Below, in pieces: positions 8,961 through 13,664 of a stretch of DNA of 28,944 nucleotides (positions are counted from its first letter, which is position 1; the number at the start of each line of letters is the position of its first letter). The notes under the pieces are model-generated. The model ran no database searches. It was not told the origin of the DNA and saw only the letters and a list, made by a program, of their open reading frames with translations. This stretch comes from a virus. A program made the translations under genes and the position numbers. The stretch is from IMG/VR virus record IMGVR_UViG_3300000928_000178, positions 1 to 28,944 of that record. One strand, written 5' to 3'.

Positions 8961-9036
8961 CAACATGTAGTCAAGTTAGGTGTCTTAGACGCTCAACAAG
9001 GGCTATATATAGCGTCAAAATAACAAGGATAACCAA

Positions 9037-9528
9037 ATGCCCCAAACCCAACAAAACACAAAAATTCTACGCCTTAAAAGCAGTTTTAACAGAGCACTAA
9101 CATTAGACAAATACAAGCAGTTAGTTCACTTTGTAATAGTAAAAAAATTAAAAGCACACTGTCCAGGAGACTATGTTTGTTACAGATTCTATACAAATTG
9201 TGTAGGTGTTGCAACAAGTGAACCAGATATAAATGAATGGCTCTCACTTCACGACTTAGGTAGTAGACCAGTAATTACTAAAAAACTTAATACTTCAGGC
9301 AAAGTGTTAGCACAAGCAAAACAAAATGGATTTACCAGTCTTGGGTTTGCTGACGGTATAATGCAAAGCAGTGAAAATTTACAAGATGAAATTATGCGTT
9401 TATTAGACAGCGGTCAAACACTTACAAATATTGCTAACAATTTAGGTTGCACAACTGCAAACATATATTACCACAGAAAGAGATACAAAGAACGTATGAA
9501 CAAGCAATTAGAGGTTGACAAAACCTAG
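9037..9528 (+). CDS. DNA-binding protein with a C-terminal Hin/resolvase-type helix-turn-helix
   Basis: A 163-aa ORF. EIMRLLDSGQTLTNIANNLGCTTANIYYHRKRY looks like an HTH_7-type motif. I see no serine-recombinase catalytic domain in the N-terminal part. Confidence 0.6.
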   Translation: MPQTQQNTKILRLKSSFNRALTLDKYKQLVHFVIVKKLKAHCPGDYVCYRFYTNCVGVATSEPDINEWLSLHDLGSRPVITKKLNTSGKVLAQAKQNGFTSLGFADGIMQSSENLQDEIMRLLDSGQTLTNIANNLGCTTANIYYHRKRYKERMNKQLEVDKT

Positions 9529-9544
9529 TTTATACTGTATAAAT
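9515..9544 (+). promoter_or_regulatory. Promoter P0 (sigma70-like)
   Basis: TTGACA (9515-9520), 17 nt, then TATAAA (9538-9543), or 18 nt to ATAAAT with a TG extension. It shares the GGTTGACAA...ACTGTATA context with P4 and P5. The -35 lies inside the 3' end of the HTH gene. The perfect palindrome TTTATAC-T-GTATAAA (9529-9543) overlaps the -10. Confidence 0.6.
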
Positions 9545-9549
9545 ATATA

Positions 9550-9753
9550 TAGTAAGTTAAAAAATAATCAATGATTACTCAGACATTCTCCAAATAATGT
9601 TCAATTTTAGCTTACAGTTGTATAAGGGTGATACTAGGATTCATTGCCTAGCTCCAACAAAATGTAACTGGAAACAGTGCCATATATATTAAAGCAGAAC
9701 TGCCCAATACTTTATACAATGATTCTAAAAAGGCGTCGAAAGGCGTCTTTTTT
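9550..9753 (+). ncRNA. Candidate small RNA or attenuated leader (P0 to terminator)
   Basis: An interval of about 200 nt bracketed by promoter P0 and an intrinsic terminator. It has no ORF of 60 aa or more. The only notable ORF is 31 aa (9597-9692) with no Shine-Dalgarno. An internal hairpin is CTAGG-ATTCATTG-CCTAG (9634-9651). Confidence 0.35.
9727..9753 (+). terminator. Intrinsic terminator with a GAAA tetraloop
   Basis: AAAAAGGCGUC-GAAA-GGCGUCUUUUUU. The 6-bp core has 4 Watson-Crick and 2 G-U pairs, is extended by A-U pairs, and is followed by a T6 tract. The same bases also read as a direct repeat AGGCGTC-GAA-AGGCGTC. Confidence 0.55.
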
Positions 9754-9754
9754 C

Positions 9755-9783
9755 TTGACAAATGCACCATTTTGTGCTATAAT
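9755..9783 (+). promoter_or_regulatory. Promoter P1 (perfect sigma70 consensus, extended -10)
   Basis: TTGACA (9755-9760), 17 nt, TGcTATAAT (TATAAT at 9778-9783). The spacer contains AAATG-CAC-CATTT. Confidence 0.8.
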
Positions 9784-9835
9784 GATAAATACATTAAGTA
9801 AAAGAATAAACTTTTACAATCTATAGGAGAAGACA

Positions 9836-10216
9836 GTGAGATATTATATTCTAAATTACACAAACGAAACTAGTGCTACGCACGGTAATGACTATTACCA
9901 TGTAAACATATGTAATGAAAACTTAGAAGAGTTTTGGACATATGTATATCCCTTTCAAAAAAACGGCAAGAAAATACACAATGCACAAACTTGGCTTAAT
10001 ATACTACAATGCAAAGAAGGTGTTGTAATAAGTAACCTAAAGTTATTGCCTAATAAGAAACATCTTATTAATGCCGACAGTATAAGACAAGCAAAACCGG
10101 AACAGTTATTTCCTACAAAGCAAGAAATGTATGATCATATAGGTGATTTAATTCACAAACGTGATGTTGAAAAACTTGAAAAACATTTTGATAATGATAT
10201 GTTTGATATAAGTTGA
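9836..10216 (+). CDS. Early hypothetical protein
   Basis: A 126-aa ORF with a GTG start 5 nt after AGGAGA, downstream of P1. I recognise no motif. Its TGA stop lies inside the -35 hexamer of P2. Confidence 0.7.
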   Translation: MRYYILNYTNETSATHGNDYYHVNICNENLEEFWTYVYPFQKNGKKIHNAQTWLNILQCKEGVVISNLKLLPNKKHLINADSIRQAKPEQLFPTKQEMYDHIGDLIHKRDVEKLEKHFDNDMFDIS

Positions 10217-10241
10217 CAAAAACAAATAACTATATTATAAT
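10213..10241 (+). promoter_or_regulatory. Promoter P2 (perfect sigma70 hexamers)
   Basis: TTGACA (10213-10218), 17 nt, TATAAT (10236-10241). Confidence 0.8.
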
Positions 10242-10247
10242 ACTAAC

Positions 10248-10620
10248 ATTGGCTAATACAAAACTAACACAGAACCCTTACATACCCTCCTTGACAACAC
10301 AGCATTGAAGGCTAGAGAAACACTAGTTTAGAAACTTGCTTGAGGGGTTGCGTTTTCCAACTAATGAAAACTGACTAGACATATGAATGCAACTGTAGGC
10401 AGAAAGCATTCTTAAAAATCACTGGTGTATGGTAAGCAGGAACGAGCCAAATGTCTTATAGTCTCTAAAAACACCCTAGGCTGTAGTAGCCTACTTATGA
10501 CTGAAGAGATCTAATAAGTTATATTATATAATAACAAATAAACCACATATAAATGTTTAATGTTCCACTTAAGAAGAGAAAAAAAATAAACAGAAAAAAC
10601 TCTTTAGAGTTTTGATGTTT
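10248..10620 (+). ncRNA. Candidate structured leader / ncRNA downstream of P2
   Basis: About 420 nt lie between P2 and the next start codon (10666), and the longest + strand ORF there is 20 codons. The 5' 270 nt look more GC-rich than the flanks and contain hairpins GAATGC-15 nt-GCATTC (10385-10411) and TAGGCT-GTAGT-AGCCTA (10477-10493). A possible helix pairs AACCCTT (10273-10279) with AGGGGTT (10343-10349). A weak hairpin plus T-run sits at 10596-10621. Confidence 0.3.
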
Positions 10621-10665
10621 TCTGTTGCCTGAAAGGGAACAGATTATAAAGGAGTAAATACTAAT

Positions 10666-10902
10666 ATGGTAATAGAAATATACAGCTATGAAGATGGCAT
10701 GAGATATGTAGACCAAAAGGAATATAAGGATTATTCTGAATGGGAAAAAGATTGGATGATAATGAAGTTTCGTGATGTTTGGACAGGACATAAAATCTAT
10801 GATATGAGCATGAAGGAATTCAGTAAACTATCACAAAAACAAAGAAACAACATGAACTGCAAAGCAGTATTTGACAGAGAAGCGTTTATACGCAAACACT
10901 AA
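10666..10902 (+). CDS. Early hypothetical protein
   Basis: A 78-aa ORF with an AAGGAG RBS. No motif recognised. Confidence 0.7.
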   Translation: MVIEIYSYEDGMRYVDQKEYKDYSEWEKDWMIMKFRDVWTGHKIYDMSMKEFSKLSQKQRNNMNCKAVFDREAFIRKH

Positions 10903-10913
10903 AGGAGAAAAAT

Positions 10914-11231
10914 ATGAATACAGATAGACTAAAACATTTTCGTAAATGGTGGAGAGTTAACCACCACAAAATACCAGCACATACTTGGTTGGTAAAACAT
11001 TCAAAACGAACTATGCACAATTACAATATAGCACCAGAACAATTTGATCATTGTAGAACTGTAATGAAAAGATGGAATTTAAGTGAATACAAACGCTTAA
11101 ATGCCAAAGATGCAGAGTTCTTATGGCGCTTAACACACCCTACTATTAACCAAAGACGTGAAAGATTACTAGCAACAGCTATGTTTTTTGAAGAACAACG
11201 CAAAGGTGTAGACAGAAAGTTTAGTAAATGA
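10914..11231 (+). CDS. Early hypothetical protein (basic)
   Basis: A 105-aa ORF with an AAGGAGA RBS, rich in Lys, Arg, His and Trp. No motif recognised. Confidence 0.7.
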   Translation: MNTDRLKHFRKWWRVNHHKIPAHTWLVKHSKRTMHNYNIAPEQFDHCRTVMKRWNLSEYKRLNAKDAEFLWRLTHPTINQRRERLLATAMFFEEQRKGVDRKFSK

Positions 11232-11413
11232 ATGATGCAGACCTACTGTTAGATAGAGTTCATAAAAAACTTAAGGCTTGGCAAAACATATACGAAGTCT
11301 TAGGGCAAGAATTTGAATATAGACGTCCTACAGAAGAAGAAATGGATCGTTATATAATACTTTATGTGGCACAAAGCTATAAAAAACCACCAAAAAAACC
11401 AAAAAAAGATTAA
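11228..11413 (+). CDS. Early hypothetical protein with a KKPPKKPKKD tail
   Basis: A 61-aa ORF with an ATGA overlap on the upstream gene. Confidence 0.6.
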   Translation: MNDADLLLDRVHKKLKAWQNIYEVLGQEFEYRRPTEEEMDRYIILYVAQSYKKPPKKPKKD

Positions 11414-11433
11414 ATTAATTTAAAATAAATTAT

Positions 11434-11462
11434 AACCCATTGAAATATATGGGTTTCTTTTT
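11434..11462 (+). terminator. Intrinsic terminator
   Basis: AACCCAT-TGAAATAT-ATGGGTT forms a 7-bp stem followed by TCTTTTT. Confidence 0.7.
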
Positions 11463-11473
11463 GTAGAAAAAGG

Positions 11474-11502
11474 TTGACAAAAGCAAGACATCTTGCTATA
11501 AT
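11474..11502 (+). promoter_or_regulatory. Promoter P3 (perfect consensus, extended -10) with a spacer palindrome
   Basis: TTGACA (11474-11479), 17 nt, TGcTATAAT (TATAAT at 11497-11502). The palindrome AGCAAGA-CA-TCTTGCT lies at 11482-11497. Confidence 0.8.
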
Positions 11503-11546
11503 ATATATATAACAATTAAGTTATAACAACAAACGGAGCGTAAATT

Positions 11547-12107
11547 ATGAGTAAGAAATTAAACGGTAAAGCAAAAGCAAAAGCAAGAGCAAAAGCATTT
11601 AAGGCAAAACAAGCGTCTAAGGCAACTAAGGCAACTGTTAAGAGTCTATTACACCCAAATACAGATCTTGTAGGGTTTTATTGGGGTTACAAAGCAAATG
11701 ATAATGTTAACGGCTTTGAATTTTCAAATATGACACTTGATGCAATGGGTATGTCTAGAGTAGATGCAATTCAAATGGGTGCACATTTTAAAGAATGTGC
11801 TGATAAACAAGTAAGCGTCTTAAAAACAAATAGGACTATGCAAGTGTATAATCAATCCAGAGAAGAGTTTGTTGCTGAAGAAAAAGCAAGAATGATTTGG
11901 GCAAGTAAAGAGTTAGCTAAGATGACTAAAGGTCCATTTCAGTTTAACAAAGATCTTATTCAAAATCTTATAATTTGGACCTGTGCTATTTCAACTTGTG
12001 TTGCAGCTGGTGTTTTAGAACAAGATGAATGGAATGGTGATAAGTTTAGTCATATTCAATGTGCTGATCCAAGTATTAGAGCAGCAATGTTTGGGGAAAC
12101 AGCGTAA
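11547..12107 (+). CDS. Early protein with a Lys/Ala-rich histone-H1-like N-terminus
   Basis: A 186-aa ORF. Its N-terminus is KAKAKARAKAFKAKQASKATKATVK and it ends in ...GETA. I do not recognise the C-terminal domain. Confidence 0.7.
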   Translation: MSKKLNGKAKAKARAKAFKAKQASKATKATVKSLLHPNTDLVGFYWGYKANDNVNGFEFSNMTLDAMGMSRVDAIQMGAHFKECADKQVSVLKTNRTMQVYNQSREEFVAEEKARMIWASKELAKMTKGPFQFNKDLIQNLIIWTCAISTCVAAGVLEQDEWNGDKFSHIQCADPSIRAAMFGETA

Positions 12108-12173
12108 TAAAAAGGTTGACAAGTAAGACATCTTACTGTATACTATAAGTATAGACAATAAAGTTTATAACAA
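12099..12173 (+). repeat. Promoter cassette copy B (near-identical to 12843-12917)
   Basis: The 75 nt ACAGCGTAATAAAAAGGTTGACAA.TAAGACATCTTA.TGTATACTATAAGTATAGACAATAAAGTTTAT.ACA differ from copy C at 3 positions. Confidence 0.9.
12116..12144 (+). promoter_or_regulatory. Promoter P4 with a spacer palindrome
   Basis: TTGACA (12116-12121), 17 nt, TGTATACT (TATACT at 12139-12144). The palindrome AGTAAGA-CA-TCTTACT lies at 12122-12137. A second inverted repeat, TATAC-TATAA-GTATA, lies at 12139-12153. Confidence 0.75.
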
Positions 12174-12191
12174 CAAAACGGAGAAATACAA

Positions 12192-12851
12192 ATGACAAAA
12201 CTAACAACACCACAAAACGCACTAACGCATGTTAAAGCATACATTTTTGAAATCATTCAACATCAAGAACGGGCTATGATGTGGATGAGTCCAGATTACA
12301 AAGCAGAATGTGAAAAATATGTTGGTGATGCGTCATCAAAAAGTTTACAAATAGCAAGTTTTGTTGATGAGTGTATACGTGATGCTAAAACTTTTGTAGA
12401 AGTAAAAAACATTCTTAAAGATATGTATAGCAAAGGACCAAATGCACCAGAGCGTTGTTATACACAAAGGATCTTTCCACTTATTGAAAAGTTTTACAAT
12501 GCAATGAAAAAGGTAGTTCCTAACCTTGAATACAAATCTCATGCTGGAACTGAATGCAGAGGCTGGTGGCGTGTGTTTGGTGAGATTTCAGGACATGATT
12601 CATATTTCTGTAGCTATGATCTTGGGCGTGATATTGGAATGGCAATTGATTTTAGAAATGCAGGTGCTATTACACAACAACAATACAACAACCACGTAAC
12701 AAAACGGACACTTAATATGCTAGGTTCTAAACGCTTCCAAACAAATGGACAGCCAGATGCAAAGTTAGTCTTAGGTTATCTTAAACCTGAATACCAAACT
12801 AATGAATATTTTGATATGCGTTTTGTTAATTGTGTAGAGGAGACAGCGTAA
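12192..12851 (+). CDS. Early hypothetical protein
   Basis: A 219-aa ORF with a GGAGA RBS, downstream of P4. It ends in ...EETA. No motif recognised. Confidence 0.75.
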   Translation: MTKLTTPQNALTHVKAYIFEIIQHQERAMMWMSPDYKAECEKYVGDASSKSLQIASFVDECIRDAKTFVEVKNILKDMYSKGPNAPERCYTQRIFPLIEKFYNAMKKVVPNLEYKSHAGTECRGWWRVFGEISGHDSYFCSYDLGRDIGMAIDFRNAGAITQQQYNNHVTKRTLNMLGSKRFQTNGQPDAKLVLGYLKPEYQTNEYFDMRFVNCVEETA

Positions 12852-12917
12852 TAAAAAGGTTGACAACTAAGACATCTTAGTGTATACTATAAGTATAGAC
12901 AATAAAGTTTATGACAC
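12843..12917 (+). repeat. Promoter cassette copy C (near-identical to 12099-12173)
   Basis: See copy B. The offset between the copies is 744 nt. Confidence 0.9.
12860..12888 (+). promoter_or_regulatory. Promoter P5 with a spacer palindrome
   Basis: TTGACA (12860-12865), 17 nt, TGTATACT (TATACT at 12883-12888). The palindrome ACTAAGA-CA-TCTTAGT lies at 12866-12881. Confidence 0.75.
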
Positions 12918-12931
12918 AAATGGAGAATACA

Positions 12932-13087
12932 ATGAATACATTAACCAAAAAAGAATTAATCCAAGCACTTACGTCAATTGTTGAACTTACACAAGAAGAC
13001 ATTGACGATTTGTGGGACAATCACAGTGAAAAAGAAGTTGCAGAAGTGTTATTATCGTATACCAAACTTAATGAGGAGACAGCGTAA
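12932..13087 (+). CDS. Small early protein (51 aa), absent from the ORF track
   Basis: ATG at 12932, preceded by a GGAGA RBS and downstream of P5. Translation: MNTLTKKELIQALTSIVELTQEDIDDLWDNHSEKEVAEVLLSYTKLNEETA. Its stop overlaps the next start (TAATG). Confidence 0.65.
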   Translation: MNTLTKKELIQALTSIVELTQEDIDDLWDNHSEKEVAEVLLSYTKLNEETA

Positions 13088-13434
13088 TGACAATTGATAA
13101 ATTCAAAGCAAATCAACAAGAAGAATTAATGATACAAAAATTAGCAGGCAAGGCAGCAGTGGTTGACTTCCTAGAACCTTTAAATGAACTACAAGATCTT
13201 GTTACAAAACTAGGTCAAAAACAAATGAGCAAGTTGAATGTAAGCAAAGAAGAAAAGACTGTTTTGGCTGCTTATAGAGAAGAACTTAATACACAGGTTA
13301 AAAACTTGCAACACATGGTGTATACAGTAGCAGATCAACTTGATGTTGATACAGCATCTTTAAGCACTCATTTAGATAACCTTACAAGAAAATTTGAATT
13401 TAAACTTTATATTATTAAAAAGGAGACAGCGTAA
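13087..13434 (+). CDS. Early hypothetical protein (coiled-coil-like)
   Basis: A 115-aa ORF, translationally coupled on both sides. It ends in ...KETA. Confidence 0.7.
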   Translation: MTIDKFKANQQEELMIQKLAGKAAVVDFLEPLNELQDLVTKLGQKQMSKLNVSKEEKTVLAAYREELNTQVKNLQHMVYTVADQLDVDTASLSTHLDNLTRKFEFKLYIIKKETA

Positions 13435-13664
13435 TGGCTAAAACAACTAAAAAAACTAAAACAACTGAAGCACCTAAGGAAGATGCAGTAAGTATAAGTA
13501 TTCAAGATATTGTGCTATCAGCAAATATCATTGACCTTGCTACACAACGTGGTGCATTTAAGGCCGGAGAAGCAAGTCAAGTAGGCGCATGCTTTGACAG
13601 ACTTGTGGCTTTTATCAAAGCAAATACACCAGAAGAAGAGGCACCAACAGAAGAAACAGCCTAA
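13434..13664 (+). CDS. Early hypothetical protein
   Basis: A 76-aa ORF with a basic, Thr/Lys-rich N-terminus and an acidic C-terminus ending in ...EETA. Confidence 0.7.
   Translation: MAKTTKKTKTTEAPKEDAVSISIQDIVLSANIIDLATQRGAFKAGEASQVGACFDRLVAFIKANTPEEEAPTEETA

What the first reader, a model, noticed from the sequence alone, without database searches (positions are those of the whole stretch)
10213..10665. Perfect consensus promoter P2 followed by about 420 nt without an ORF (structured leader / ncRNA candidate)
Seen:
- P2 is TTGACA, 17 nt, TATAAT (10213-10241). Its -35 contains the stop codon of the upstream gene.
- The next credible start is at 10666. Between them the longest + strand ORF is 20 codons.
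- The first 270 nt or so look visibly less AT-rich than the flanks. They hold hairpins at 10385-10411 (6-bp stem, 15-nt loop) and 10477-10493 (6-bp stem, 5-nt loop), plus a possible long-range helix pairing 10273-10279 with 10343-10349.
- An extremely AT-rich tract (10500-10600) follows.
- Then comes a weak hairpin plus T-run (10596-10621), and a hairpin with a UGAAA loop (10622-10642) just before the RBS.

This gap is large for a 29-kb genome that is otherwise packed with overlapping start and stop codons.

Inference: possible roles are a riboswitch or attenuator-type leader, an antitermination or processing RNA, a stand-alone ncRNA, or a replication origin (structured region next to an AT-rich tract).
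Basis: partly seen in the sequence, partly recalled or inferred. Interest (0 to 1): 0.6.

Follow-up and report, generated by a model that had tools for sequence, protein, structure and literature searches.

The report
Conserved structured RNA in phage early leader
A strong bacterial-type promoter in this small marine phage drives a roughly 400-base non-coding RNA whose folded core is kept intact by paired mutations in related phages, and it sits exactly where sister phages carry a tiny DNA polymerase gene; its job is still unknown.

Summary
P2 (10213-10241) is a perfect TTGACA-17-TATAAT promoter, one of five in 3 kb where 0.07 are expected by chance. No conserved ORF lies between it and the p78 start at 10666.

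I found five more copies in marine metagenomes, giving about four distinct lineages. In all of them the hexamers and the 17-nt spacing are kept while the spacer sequence drifts.

A 225-nt core (10272-10496) is 92% identical between phages whose neighbouring gene has diverged to 69%. Ten base pairs show compensatory double changes, against 0-2 in shifted controls. G-U pairs point to the + strand.

No Rfam family, tRNA, protein remnant, iteron or DnaA box matches. Folding energy is not unusual.

Metatranscriptome contigs from four studies cover the unit and run on into p78-p105, so the weak terminator-like hairpin P7 is read through.

The unit is modular and dispensable. Some relatives keep P2 and the 3' leader but carry unrelated cores. 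Sister phages carry at this spot a minimal family-A DNA polymerase gene, and one complete relative has neither.

Best reading: a new accessory structured RNA riding on the 5' end of an early mRNA. A cis-regulatory leader and a replication-priming element remain open.

The parts
10199..10216 (+). Left junction of the cassette: the last codons (..DMFDIS-stop) of the upstream 126-aa ORF
   Evidence: The same 3' coding tail (GATGATATGTTTGA..TAAG) is attached to an unrelated 148-aa ORF in L020. Identity is 90% here against 47% just upstream.
10213..10241 (+). Promoter P2, TTGACA-17-TATAAT
   Evidence: 12 of 12 consensus. Five such sites occur against 0.07 expected. Hexamers and 17-nt spacing are kept in six variants while the spacer diverges, 45-80% identity.
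10247..10271 (+). Predicted transcript start and unstructured CA-rich 5' segment with CUAAYA repeats
   Evidence: The start is inferred from the -10 position. RNA-library contigs begin at 10243 and 10250 in two studies, which is a weak hint. The segment tolerates a 13-nt deletion (L020) and a ~120-nt insertion (L054).
10272..10496 (+). Structured RNA core. Helices: P1 10281-89/10342-50; P2 10301-15/10323-40; P3 10352-57/10366-71; P4 10373-82/10451-63; P5 10385-90/10406-11; P6 10477-83/10487-93
   Evidence: 92-98% identical among variants, against 69% for the adjacent gene. Compensatory changes occur in P1, P3 (2 pairs), P4 and P5. 99.6% of cells are paired. An independent test gave 0 of 20000 random placements reaching the observed compensation. 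Covariance model R1 finds it only in these six loci.
10497..10559 (+). AU-rich variable linker (GC about 0.21)
   Evidence: 71-82% identity, with 9-14-nt indels between variants. No iterons or DnaA boxes.
10560..10576 (+). Invariant 17-mer ATGTTCCACTTAAGAAG, the first element of a 3' leader module shared with other cassette types
   Evidence: Identical in the window, L002, L020, L052, L054, L039 and L042 types, although their cores are unrelated. Its function is unknown.
10596..10613 (+). Hairpin P7 (AAAACUC/GAGUUUU), weakly terminator-like
   Evidence: The stem is kept by different double changes in L020 (GAC/GUC) and L052 (GUAACU/AGUUAC). It has only 2 G-C pairs and was not called by the terminator scan. 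The U-run is lost in L052/L053. RNA contigs bridge it.
10621..10643 (+). Hairpin P8 just upstream of the ribosome-binding site
   Evidence: Five pairs carry compensatory changes in three lineages, and the apical loop varies.
10648..10668 (+). Shine-Dalgarno sequence (AAAGGAG) and ATG of the 78-aa early gene
   Evidence: The motif GTAAATACWAWTATG is conserved in all relatives.

Best explanation
The interval is a transcription unit for a structured non-coding RNA.

Shown:
- P2 is a conserved sigma-70 consensus promoter.
- Downstream lies a 225-nt multi-helix core (10272-10496) kept by purifying selection and compensatory pairing on the + strand.
- An AU-rich variable linker follows, then a second module: an invariant 17-mer, hairpins P7 and P8, and the RBS. 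This second module is shared with other cassette types.
- The stretch occurs in RNA libraries on contigs that continue into p78-p105.
- The core is a discrete, dispensable, swappable module. It sits in the slot where sister phages carry a minimal family-A DNA polymerase gene.

Inferred:
- The core works as an RNA in its own right. It would be an early accessory RNA that binds a host or phage protein or RNA. It either rides on the 5' end of the early mRNA or is cut from it in the AU-rich linker.
- P7 and P8 serve the downstream message through partial attenuation, 5'-end protection after cleavage, and presentation of the RBS.

The molecular target is unknown.
For: - Promoter. Hexamers and spacing are conserved while the spacer drifts.
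- Non-coding: small ORFs are broken in relatives. There is no protein remnant.
- Selection: the core is 92% identical between the window and L020. The adjacent p78 gene is 69% identical, with third codon positions at 53%. Within the cassette the spacer (45%) and linker (71%) are much less conserved, so recent transfer alone does not explain the pattern.
- Structure: 10 pairs have double changes and 99.6% of cells are paired. Slid controls give 0-2. 0 of 500 shuffles reach the covariation score. The window's own MFE structure against L020's substitutions gives 5 compensated pairs, reached by 0 of 20000 random placements.
- Strand: G-U pairs (G-U to A-U, C-G to U-G) would be A-C mismatches on the other strand.
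- RNA: contigs from four metatranscriptome studies span 9784/9793-11222, 10243-11104 and 10250-10473, and they bridge P7 and P8.
- Modularity: L039-41 and L042-49 keep a P2-type promoter and the 3' leader, but carry unrelated cores with their own U-run hairpins. Polymerase-bearing relatives express p78 with overlapping stop and start codons and no leader. The core is therefore not needed for p78 expression.
Against: - Only six sequences in about four lineages are known. Several compensations are shared by descent.
- Folding energy is no better than shuffled sequence, z = +0.2 to -1.2.
- Contigs cannot show strand, ends or relative abundance. Contig depths over the core (3.6-4.3) are only slightly above the flanks (2.1-3.4), so an abundant separate RNA species is not indicated.
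- Contig starts near promoters could also be assembly breaks at repeated promoter cassettes.
- No efficient terminator or mapped processing site delimits a stand-alone RNA.
- No target or partner is identified.
Confidence: 0.45

Rival explanations
1. It is a purely cis-acting regulatory leader. The core would sense a ligand, protein or RNA, in riboswitch, T-box or attenuator style. It would set how much transcription from P1 and P2 passes P7, or how well p78-p105-p61 are translated.
For: - The unit always lies in the same orientation between a promoter and the p78 RBS.
- A conserved aptamer-sized core is followed by a variable linker and then covarying hairpins next to a U-rich tract and the SD.
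- RNA contigs continue into p78.
- Long invariant unpaired stretches, for example 10412-10450, resemble ligand or protein pockets.
Against: - No Rfam riboswitch, T-box or leader family matches, even at E <= 10.
- No convincing mutually exclusive terminator/antiterminator pairing was found.
- P7 is weak, and its U-run is lost in L052/L053.
- The 3' leader with P7 and P8 also serves cassettes with unrelated cores.
- Relatives express p78 with no leader at all.
- The downstream genes are ORFans with no metabolic theme.
Confidence: 0.25
2. It is a replication element. P2 transcription through the structured region into the AT-rich tract would create an R-loop or primer. Host DNA polymerase I would then extend it, in ColE1 RNA II, T7 primary origin or T4 oriF style. 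Alternatively the folded + strand would act as a single-strand initiation signal. Either would let polymerase-less members of the group start replication.
For: - In relatives the same slot holds a minimal family-A DNA polymerase. p484 gives Foldseek E 1e-5 to Klenow and Bst Pol I. p364 of L014, the sister of RNA-bearing L020, is homologous to it, with hhalign probability 95.8% and the same fold hits.
- The complete genomes G000 and G002 lack any such polymerase, and no replication gene is recognisable.
- The closest cultured phages (HTVC111P-type pelagiphages) also lack a polymerase. Their authors suggest they rely on the host replication system (bioRxiv 10.1101/2019.12.14.876532).
- The architecture, a strong promoter, then a structured RNA, then an AT-rich tract, fits transcription-primed origins. 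This last point rests on my own knowledge of ColE1, T7 and T4.
Against: - No iterons or DnaA boxes. GC skew is positive genome-wide with no switch.
- The AT-rich tract is the least conserved part, with indels.
- RNA contigs read through it into p78 like an ordinary mRNA.
- Other cassette types place U-run hairpins ahead of the tract.
- The complete relative G001 has neither the RNA unit nor the polymerase.
- No opposing promoter for an RNA I-like antisense was seen over the 5' part.
Confidence: 0.12
3. It is the target of the upstream P0 RNA. The 14-nt complementarity between 9610-9623 and the P5 loop (10387-10400) would mediate antisense control of the P2 transcript.
For: The duplex exists in the window, L002-type and L054, at -24 to -25 kcal/mol, and most of the target lies in a hairpin loop.
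Against: - These three sequences are identical in both partners, so they are not informative.
- In L052/L053 the P0 segment changed without a matching change in the loop, and the duplex falls to -12 kcal/mol.
- In L020 the loop changed at three positions. The visible P0 part, like that of its sister L014, does not follow.
- The P0 block 9596-9632 is conserved in relatives that lack the core altogether.
Confidence: 0.05
4. It is functionless DNA. It would be a decayed gene or spacer that looks conserved only because the cassette spread recently among phages.
For: The early region is a mosaic with very uneven identity between relatives. Folding energy is unremarkable.
Against: - Conservation inside the cassette is strongly uneven: core 92%, linker 71%, spacer 45%.
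- Substitutions avoid or compensate helices, with 0 of 20000 random placements matching.
- No similarity to any protein of the group.
- The promoter hexamers are preserved in every copy.
Confidence: 0.04

Closest known systems
PeSL (promoter-early stem-loop) mobile regulatory cassettes of T4-type phages (Arbiol et al. 2010, PMC2839356)
   Same: Strong sigma-70-type early promoters sit in a hyperplastic early region. They act as conserved blocks between which non-essential cassettes are exchanged. The P1, P3 and P4 blocks recur on many unrelated contigs.
   Different: P2 has no stem-loop terminator attached to it and no palindromic spacer. The cargo here is a 225-nt structured RNA rather than an ORFan. 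PeSLs explain how the unit moves, not what the RNA does.
Large structured RNAs of unknown function found in phages, prophages and marine metagenomes (GOLLD, ROOL, HEARO, IMES classes; Weinberg et al. 2010, PMC2864571, and my own knowledge)
   Same: Sizeable, multi-helix and supported by covariation. Phage- or metagenome-borne, seen in metatranscriptomes, and with no known biochemical role.
   Different: None of these families matches by covariance model. This RNA is smaller, has a narrow distribution of six loci, and is fused to the 5' leader of an early operon.
ColE1 RNA II primer, T7 primary origin (phi1.1A/B promoters plus an AT-rich tract) and T4 oriF/oriG R-loop origins (my own knowledge)
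   Same: A strong promoter, then a transcribed structured or AT-rich region. The unit sits at the position of the replication (polymerase) module of relatives. The phage has no polymerase of its own.
   Different: There is no RNA I-type antisense partner, and no mapped RNA-DNA hybrid or RNase H site. The AT tract is poorly conserved and the transcript continues as mRNA. One complete relative lacks both the polymerase and the RNA.
Riboswitch or attenuator leaders
   Same: A conserved folded domain lies upstream of a variable linker and hairpins that abut a U-tract and the SD.
   Different: There is no family match, no demonstrable switching helices, and the downstream genes are ORFans. The core can be exchanged for unrelated cores while the hairpins are kept.

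Membership tests
Any Rfam 15 family (riboswitches, T-box, leaders, 6S, tmRNA, GOLLD/ROOL/HEARO/IMES, ribozymes) | Covariance-model score at or above the family's gathering threshold | tested here: not met
   0 matches at gathering on the whole window and on 12 related loci. At E <= 10 on 9500-10700 there were only four chance-level hits, none inside the core.
tRNA / tmRNA | ARAGORN-detectable cloverleaf or tag-peptide structure | tested here: not met
   0 genes in the window.
Sigma-70 promoter | TTGACA and TATAAT hexamers 17 nt apart, conserved in relatives while the spacer varies | tested here: met
   Activity itself was not measured.
Structured functional RNA (generic) | Base pairs maintained by compensatory substitutions beyond chance | tested here: met
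   10 double-change pairs against 0-2 in slid controls. 0 of 500 shuffles reach the covariation score. 0 of 20000 random placements match.
Structured functional RNA (generic) | Thermodynamic stability above shuffled sequence | tested here: not met
   z = -1.21 (whole leader), +0.18 (core) and -0.34 (to P7).
Intrinsic terminator / attenuator (P7) | G+C-rich stem followed directly by a conserved U-run, with transcripts ending there | tested here: inconclusive
   7-bp stem with 2 G-C pairs, not called by the scan. The stem covaries, but the U-run is lost in L052/L053. RNA contigs bridge it in four runs. 3' ends cannot be seen in contigs.
Riboswitch | Aptamer plus expression platform with mutually exclusive helices; linkage to genes of one pathway; a ligand | tested here: inconclusive
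   A conserved aptamer-sized core is present. No alternative-pairing scheme was found. The downstream genes are ORFans. A ligand is not testable here.
Lambda nut (boxA/boxB) or HK022 put antitermination RNAs | A conserved boxB-type loop, or a two-stem put fold, immediately downstream of the early promoter | tested here: not met
   The GAAA-type loop of P8 is replaced by GAA, GUUA or AGA in relatives. The first ~25 nt after P2 are unstructured and tolerate indels.
ColE1-type RNA II primer / R-loop origin | Promoter upstream of the origin, folded primer RNA, antisense RNA I over its 5' end, RNase H and Pol I dependence | tested here: inconclusive
   Promoter and folded RNA are present. No strong opposing promoter lies over the 5' part. 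The hybrid and the enzyme dependence cannot be tested with these tools.
Iteron- or DnaA-type replication origin | Repeated initiator sites or DnaA boxes beside an AT-rich unwinding element; a skew switch | tested here: not met
   No direct-repeat family in the interval. No TTWTNCACA in 9000-12300. GC skew is positive throughout.
PeSL-type mobile regulatory cassette | Strong early promoter joined to a stem-loop terminator, flanking exchangeable cargo in a hyperplastic region | tested here: inconclusive
   The slot and its cargo are clearly exchangeable and promoter-bounded. P1 has an abutting terminator (9726-9752) but P2 does not.

The most novel reading that the evidence does not exclude
The P2 unit is an RNA solution to replication. 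In polymerase-less members of this marine phage group (relatives of HTVC111P-type pelagiphages), the structured P2 transcript plus the AT-rich tract would form a transcription-primed start site that recruits the host's own family-A polymerase. It occupies the genomic slot where sister phages encode a minimal family-A DNA polymerase. The unit would then be a swappable 'RNA instead of polymerase' replication module.
Probability: 0.12. Interest if true: 0.85.

Novelty: new variant of a known kind. Interest (0 to 1): 0.55.

Why it matters
If it is real, this adds a new structured RNA family with no Rfam counterpart. It is carried by uncultured marine phages whose nearest cultured kin infect SAR11, and whose DNA or RNA turns up in about 19 independent seawater studies.

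It shows that the hypervariable early 'host-takeover' slot of such phages can hold RNA cargo as well as protein cargo. The RNA alternates with a previously unrecognised minimal (364-515 aa) family-A DNA polymerase.

That alternation gives a concrete handle on two open questions. One is how polymerase-less pelagiphage-like viruses replicate. The other is what large phage-borne structured RNAs do.

The element is short enough to synthesise, probe and use for pull-downs.

Tried and rejected
- Rfam at gathering and at E <= 10: nothing. ARAGORN: nothing.
- blastn and megablast against 50,697 phage records: no match.
- IMG/VR scan with a 17-mer of the core: besides the known relatives, only two high-GC chance hits.
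- A 20-mer in 596 Gb of prokaryote genomes: one 22-nt chance match inside a Pseudoalteromonas contig.
- Portal protein in genome contigs: no prophage relative, so no host from that route.
- MFE z-scores gave no support for unusual stability.
- GC skew, DnaA boxes and iterons gave no origin signal.
- tblastn of all ORFs of the group against the interval, and blastn of the upstream gene against it: no pseudogene remnant.
- Covariance model R1 found no distant copy in the unrelated cores of L039 or L042, or elsewhere in 149 kb of related loci.
- The P0-to-P5-loop antisense idea was tested by covariation and is not supported.
- A possible P3/P7 alternative pairing (antiterminator) gives only 4-5 A-U-rich pairs by my own reading, so I dropped it.
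- Pfam and PHROGs on neighbouring and alternative-cassette proteins gave no functional names.
- Parts of the laid stretch without RNA-contig cover (HTH gene, p61, p186) are uninformative. The strain in those runs is not homologous to the window there.
Full report
**What the window is.** It is a complete 28,944-bp virus record with direct terminal repeats. It encodes a capsid, portal, large terminase, tape measure, tail-J-like protein and an LtfC-like protein, followed by a 2,787-aa fibre-like ORF. All genes lie on the + strand. Relatives come from TARA, Saanich Inlet, Fram Strait and other seawater assemblies. By portal protein the nearest cultured phages are the Pelagibacter phages HTVC026P, 111P, 112P and 202P, at 36-37% identity. 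The host is therefore probably a marine proteobacterium, possibly SAR11, but this is not shown. No replication gene is recognisable in the genome.

**The observation.**
- P2 is TTGACA-17-TATAAT at 10213-10241, and the upstream gene's TGA lies inside the -35.
- The genome has five such sites, all on the + strand within 9755-12888. Shuffles give 0.07.
- The next SD-preceded start is 10666.
- The + strand ORFs in between (31 codons from TTG, 29 from GTG, 20 from ATG) are all interrupted in one or more relatives.
- No ORF of the phage group has left a detectable remnant here.
- GC is 0.395 for 10248-10500 and 0.21 for 10501-10600.

**Relatives.** Searching with the flanking proteins, and then with p78 homologues, gave five further copies of the unit.
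- The L002/L005/L013 group (94% identical over the interval).
- L020 (87%).
- L052 and L053.
- L054, which carries a ~120-nt insertion just after the promoter.

In all of them the two hexamers and the 17-nt spacing are intact while the spacer sequence drifts. That pattern is expected of a working promoter.

**Selection.** Between the window and L020, identities are as follows.

| Segment | Identity |
|---|---|
| Core 10248-10496 | 92% |
| Promoter spacer | 45% |
| AU-rich linker | 71% |
| p78 gene | 69% (third codon positions 53%) |

Uneven conservation inside a single cassette argues for purifying selection on the core. Recent transfer alone would not produce it.

**Structure.** I took the window's own minimum-free-energy fold, which is independent of the relatives, and compared it with L020. 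Five base pairs carry compensatory double changes there. None of 20,000 random placements of the same 44 substitutions gives as many.

With six sequences, RNAalifold predicts 77 pairs, 10 of them with double changes. On that structure 99.6% of cells pair. Structures slid by 1-3 columns give 0-2 double changes. No shuffle out of 500 reaches the observed covariation score.

The supported helices are listed below.

| Helix | Window coordinates | Comparative evidence |
|---|---|---|
| P1 | 10281-89/10342-50 | C-G to U-A |
| P2 | 10301-15/10323-40 | G-U to A-U |
| P3 | 10352-57/10366-71 | two double changes |
| P4 | 10373-82/10451-63 | A-U to U-A |
| P5 | 10385-90/10406-11 | G-C to A-U |
| P6 | 10477-83/10487-93 | invariant |
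| P7 | 10596-602/10607-13 | different double changes in L020 and L052 |
| P8 | 10621-29/10635-43 | five covarying pairs in three lineages |

Several G-U pairs would be A-C mismatches on the other strand, so the folded strand is the + strand.

Against an exceptional structure, folding energies equal those of shuffled sequence. Also, the sample is small, and some changes are shared by descent between L020 and L052/L053.

**Not a known RNA.** There are no Rfam matches at gathering or at E <= 10, in the window or in 12 related loci. There is no tRNA or tmRNA. Model R1, built from the core, finds only the six known copies in 149 kb of related DNA. Pattern scans of IMG/VR and of 596 Gb of prokaryote genomes returned only chance hits.

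**Expression.** Twenty public runs from 19 studies hold the stretch, and six of them are metatranscriptomes. I laid contigs from four RNA runs onto the window.
- They cover 9793-11222 (one 1,421-nt contig at depth 18), 10243-11104 and 10250-10473. Shorter pieces fill in the rest.
- They bridge P7 and P8 into p78 and p105.
- Their starts at 9784/9793 and 10243/10250 lie just downstream of P1 and P2.

This fits transcripts initiated at P1 and P2 that read through the leader. There are caveats. Contigs show neither strand nor true ends. Graph breaks at repeated promoter cassettes are an alternative explanation for the contig starts. The modest depth differences do not indicate an abundant separate RNA species.

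**Modularity.** The unit is built from separable parts.
- The left junction includes the last codons of the upstream ORF, which are grafted onto unrelated proteins in the window and in L020.
- L039-41 keep the P2 promoter and the first ~30 nt, and also everything from about 10560 onward. Between these they carry an unrelated ~500-nt segment with its own U-run hairpin.
- L042-49 share the same 3' leader behind yet another core.

So the invariant 17-mer ATGTTCCACTTAAGAAG (10560-10576), together with P7, P8 and the RBS, forms a leader module for p78. The window-type core is an independent payload.

**The slot.** In L012, L016, L017, L019 and L006 the space between the early ORFs and p78 is filled by a 484-515-aa protein. 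In L014, the sister of RNA-bearing L020, it holds a 364-aa protein plus two small ORFs. In these phages p78 overlaps the preceding stop codon and there is no leader.

Neither protein has a Pfam or PHROG hit. Several lines nonetheless place both in the family-A DNA polymerase fold.
- The 484-aa protein has polymerase-like motifs (YEVDLSSS, K..AIGFG, WVHDG).
- Its AlphaFold model (pLDDT 76) matches Klenow, Bst Pol I, apicoplast Pol and Pol theta at E 1e-5, probability 1.0.
- The 364-aa family is homologous to it over these motifs, with hhalign probability 95.8% and E 7e-9.
- The 364-aa model (pLDDT 92) hits the same polymerases.

The complete genomes G000 and G002 (both RNA-bearing) and G001 (with neither RNA nor polymerase) lack any such gene. 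The slot is thus the position of a dispensable replication module. The authors of the HTVC111P-type pelagiphage description likewise found no polymerase and suggested reliance on the host.

**How it most likely works.**

*Shown:*
- A conserved promoter.
- A conserved + strand fold.
- Presence in RNA libraries on contigs that extend into p78.
- Dispensability and exchangeability of the core.

*Inferred:*
- Relatives express p78 without any leader, and the 3' leader serves unrelated cores. The core is therefore best read as cargo with its own function as an RNA.
- It would be an early accessory RNA that binds some host or phage factor, either attached to the early mRNA or released from it by cleavage in the AU-rich linker.
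- P7 and P8 would act for the downstream message.

I put this reading at about 0.45. A purely cis-regulatory leader gets about 0.25. A replication-priming element gets about 0.12; it was raised by the polymerase context and lowered by G001, by the poorly conserved AT tract and by the read-through. Antisense control by the P0 RNA gets about 0.05. That complementarity exists in the window, but it is lost without compensation in L052/L053 and L020. Junk conserved by recent transfer gets about 0.04.

**Comparison with known systems.** The way the unit moves resembles the PeSL promoter cassettes of T4-type phages. As an object it resembles the large orphan structured RNAs of phages and metagenomes, but it belongs to none of them. 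The promoter-plus-AT-tract layout recalls ColE1, T7 and T4 transcription-primed origins, yet the defining features of those could not be tested or were not found. I file it as a new variant of a known kind: a phage-borne structured non-coding RNA or leader.

This scan had already noted the neighbouring P0 unit, the palindromic promoter spacers and the lack of replication genes on this same window. I found no record of this RNA on other DNA.

Noticed in passing
L012:6127-7581; L014:1740-2834 (also L016, L017, L019, L006): Two related families of very small family-A DNA-polymerase-like proteins (484-515 aa and about 340-470 aa) with no exonuclease domain. Neither has a Pfam or PHROG hit. The 364-aa family has 97 clusters at 90% identity in marine data. 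Both AlphaFold models hit Klenow and Bst Pol I. They may be a new minimal phage polymerase.
   Followed up: partly
window 9516-9753: P0 (TTGACA-17-TATAAA) is followed by ~200 nt without a credible ORF and then a GAAA-loop hairpin plus T-run abutting P1. It looks like a second ncRNA unit. Its block 9596-9632 is conserved even in distant relatives that lack the P2 core. One RNA run has a contig at 9559-9704.
   Followed up: partly
window 9755-9783, 11474-11502, 12116-12144, 12860-12888: P1, P3, P4 and P5 carry inverted repeats inside the -35/-10 spacer (for example GCAAGA-CA-TCTTGC), and the outer positions covary. P2 has none. The ~50-nt promoter blocks at 11467-11525 and 12105-12172 occur on many unrelated RNA and DNA contigs with different flanks.
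   Followed up: partly
window 12093-13664: Five consecutive early proteins end in ..ETA-stop. The next gene's RBS and start are built into the same junction sequence. The same ending appears in L012 and L017 ORFs.
   Followed up: no
window 10196-10216; L020:1545-1568; L006/L014/L017/L019/L029 ORF ends: Unrelated proteins just upstream of the variable slot share short acidic-aromatic C-terminal tails. The tail is DDMF(D/E)(I/V)S before the P2 cassette, and (S/G)LWE(F/V) before the polymerase or other ORF cassettes. It may be a recombination junction or a functional tail.
   Followed up: no
L002, L039, L052 just after the P2 -10 (the window equivalent is 10249-10252, where ATG has become TTG): An AUG lies 1-3 nt from the predicted P2 start (M-A-N-..). 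It opens a 63-aa ORF in L039, but only 17-27 codons in L002 and L052, and none in the window, L020 or L054. It may be a leaderless ORF in some cassette types.
   Followed up: no
L012:6030-6126 and L006:3376-3474: The ~100-nt conserved non-coding stretch upstream of the polymerase-like gene contains two GGTGTCAC repeats. It may be a regulatory or origin-like element of the polymerase-bearing relatives.
   Followed up: no
L020:1985-2051 and L042:2060-2150: The 67-nt insertion between P8 and the RBS in L020 shares a GGCCRAGCTCAGATYAA block with the L042-type leader. This is another small non-coding module that moves between cassettes.
   Followed up: no
window 10272-10275 with 10562-10565: A possible 4-5-bp long-range pairing, (G/A)GAAC with GUUC(C), would bracket the exchangeable core. 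Both motifs are also present in the L039 type. It is invariant, so it cannot be tested by covariation.
   Followed up: no
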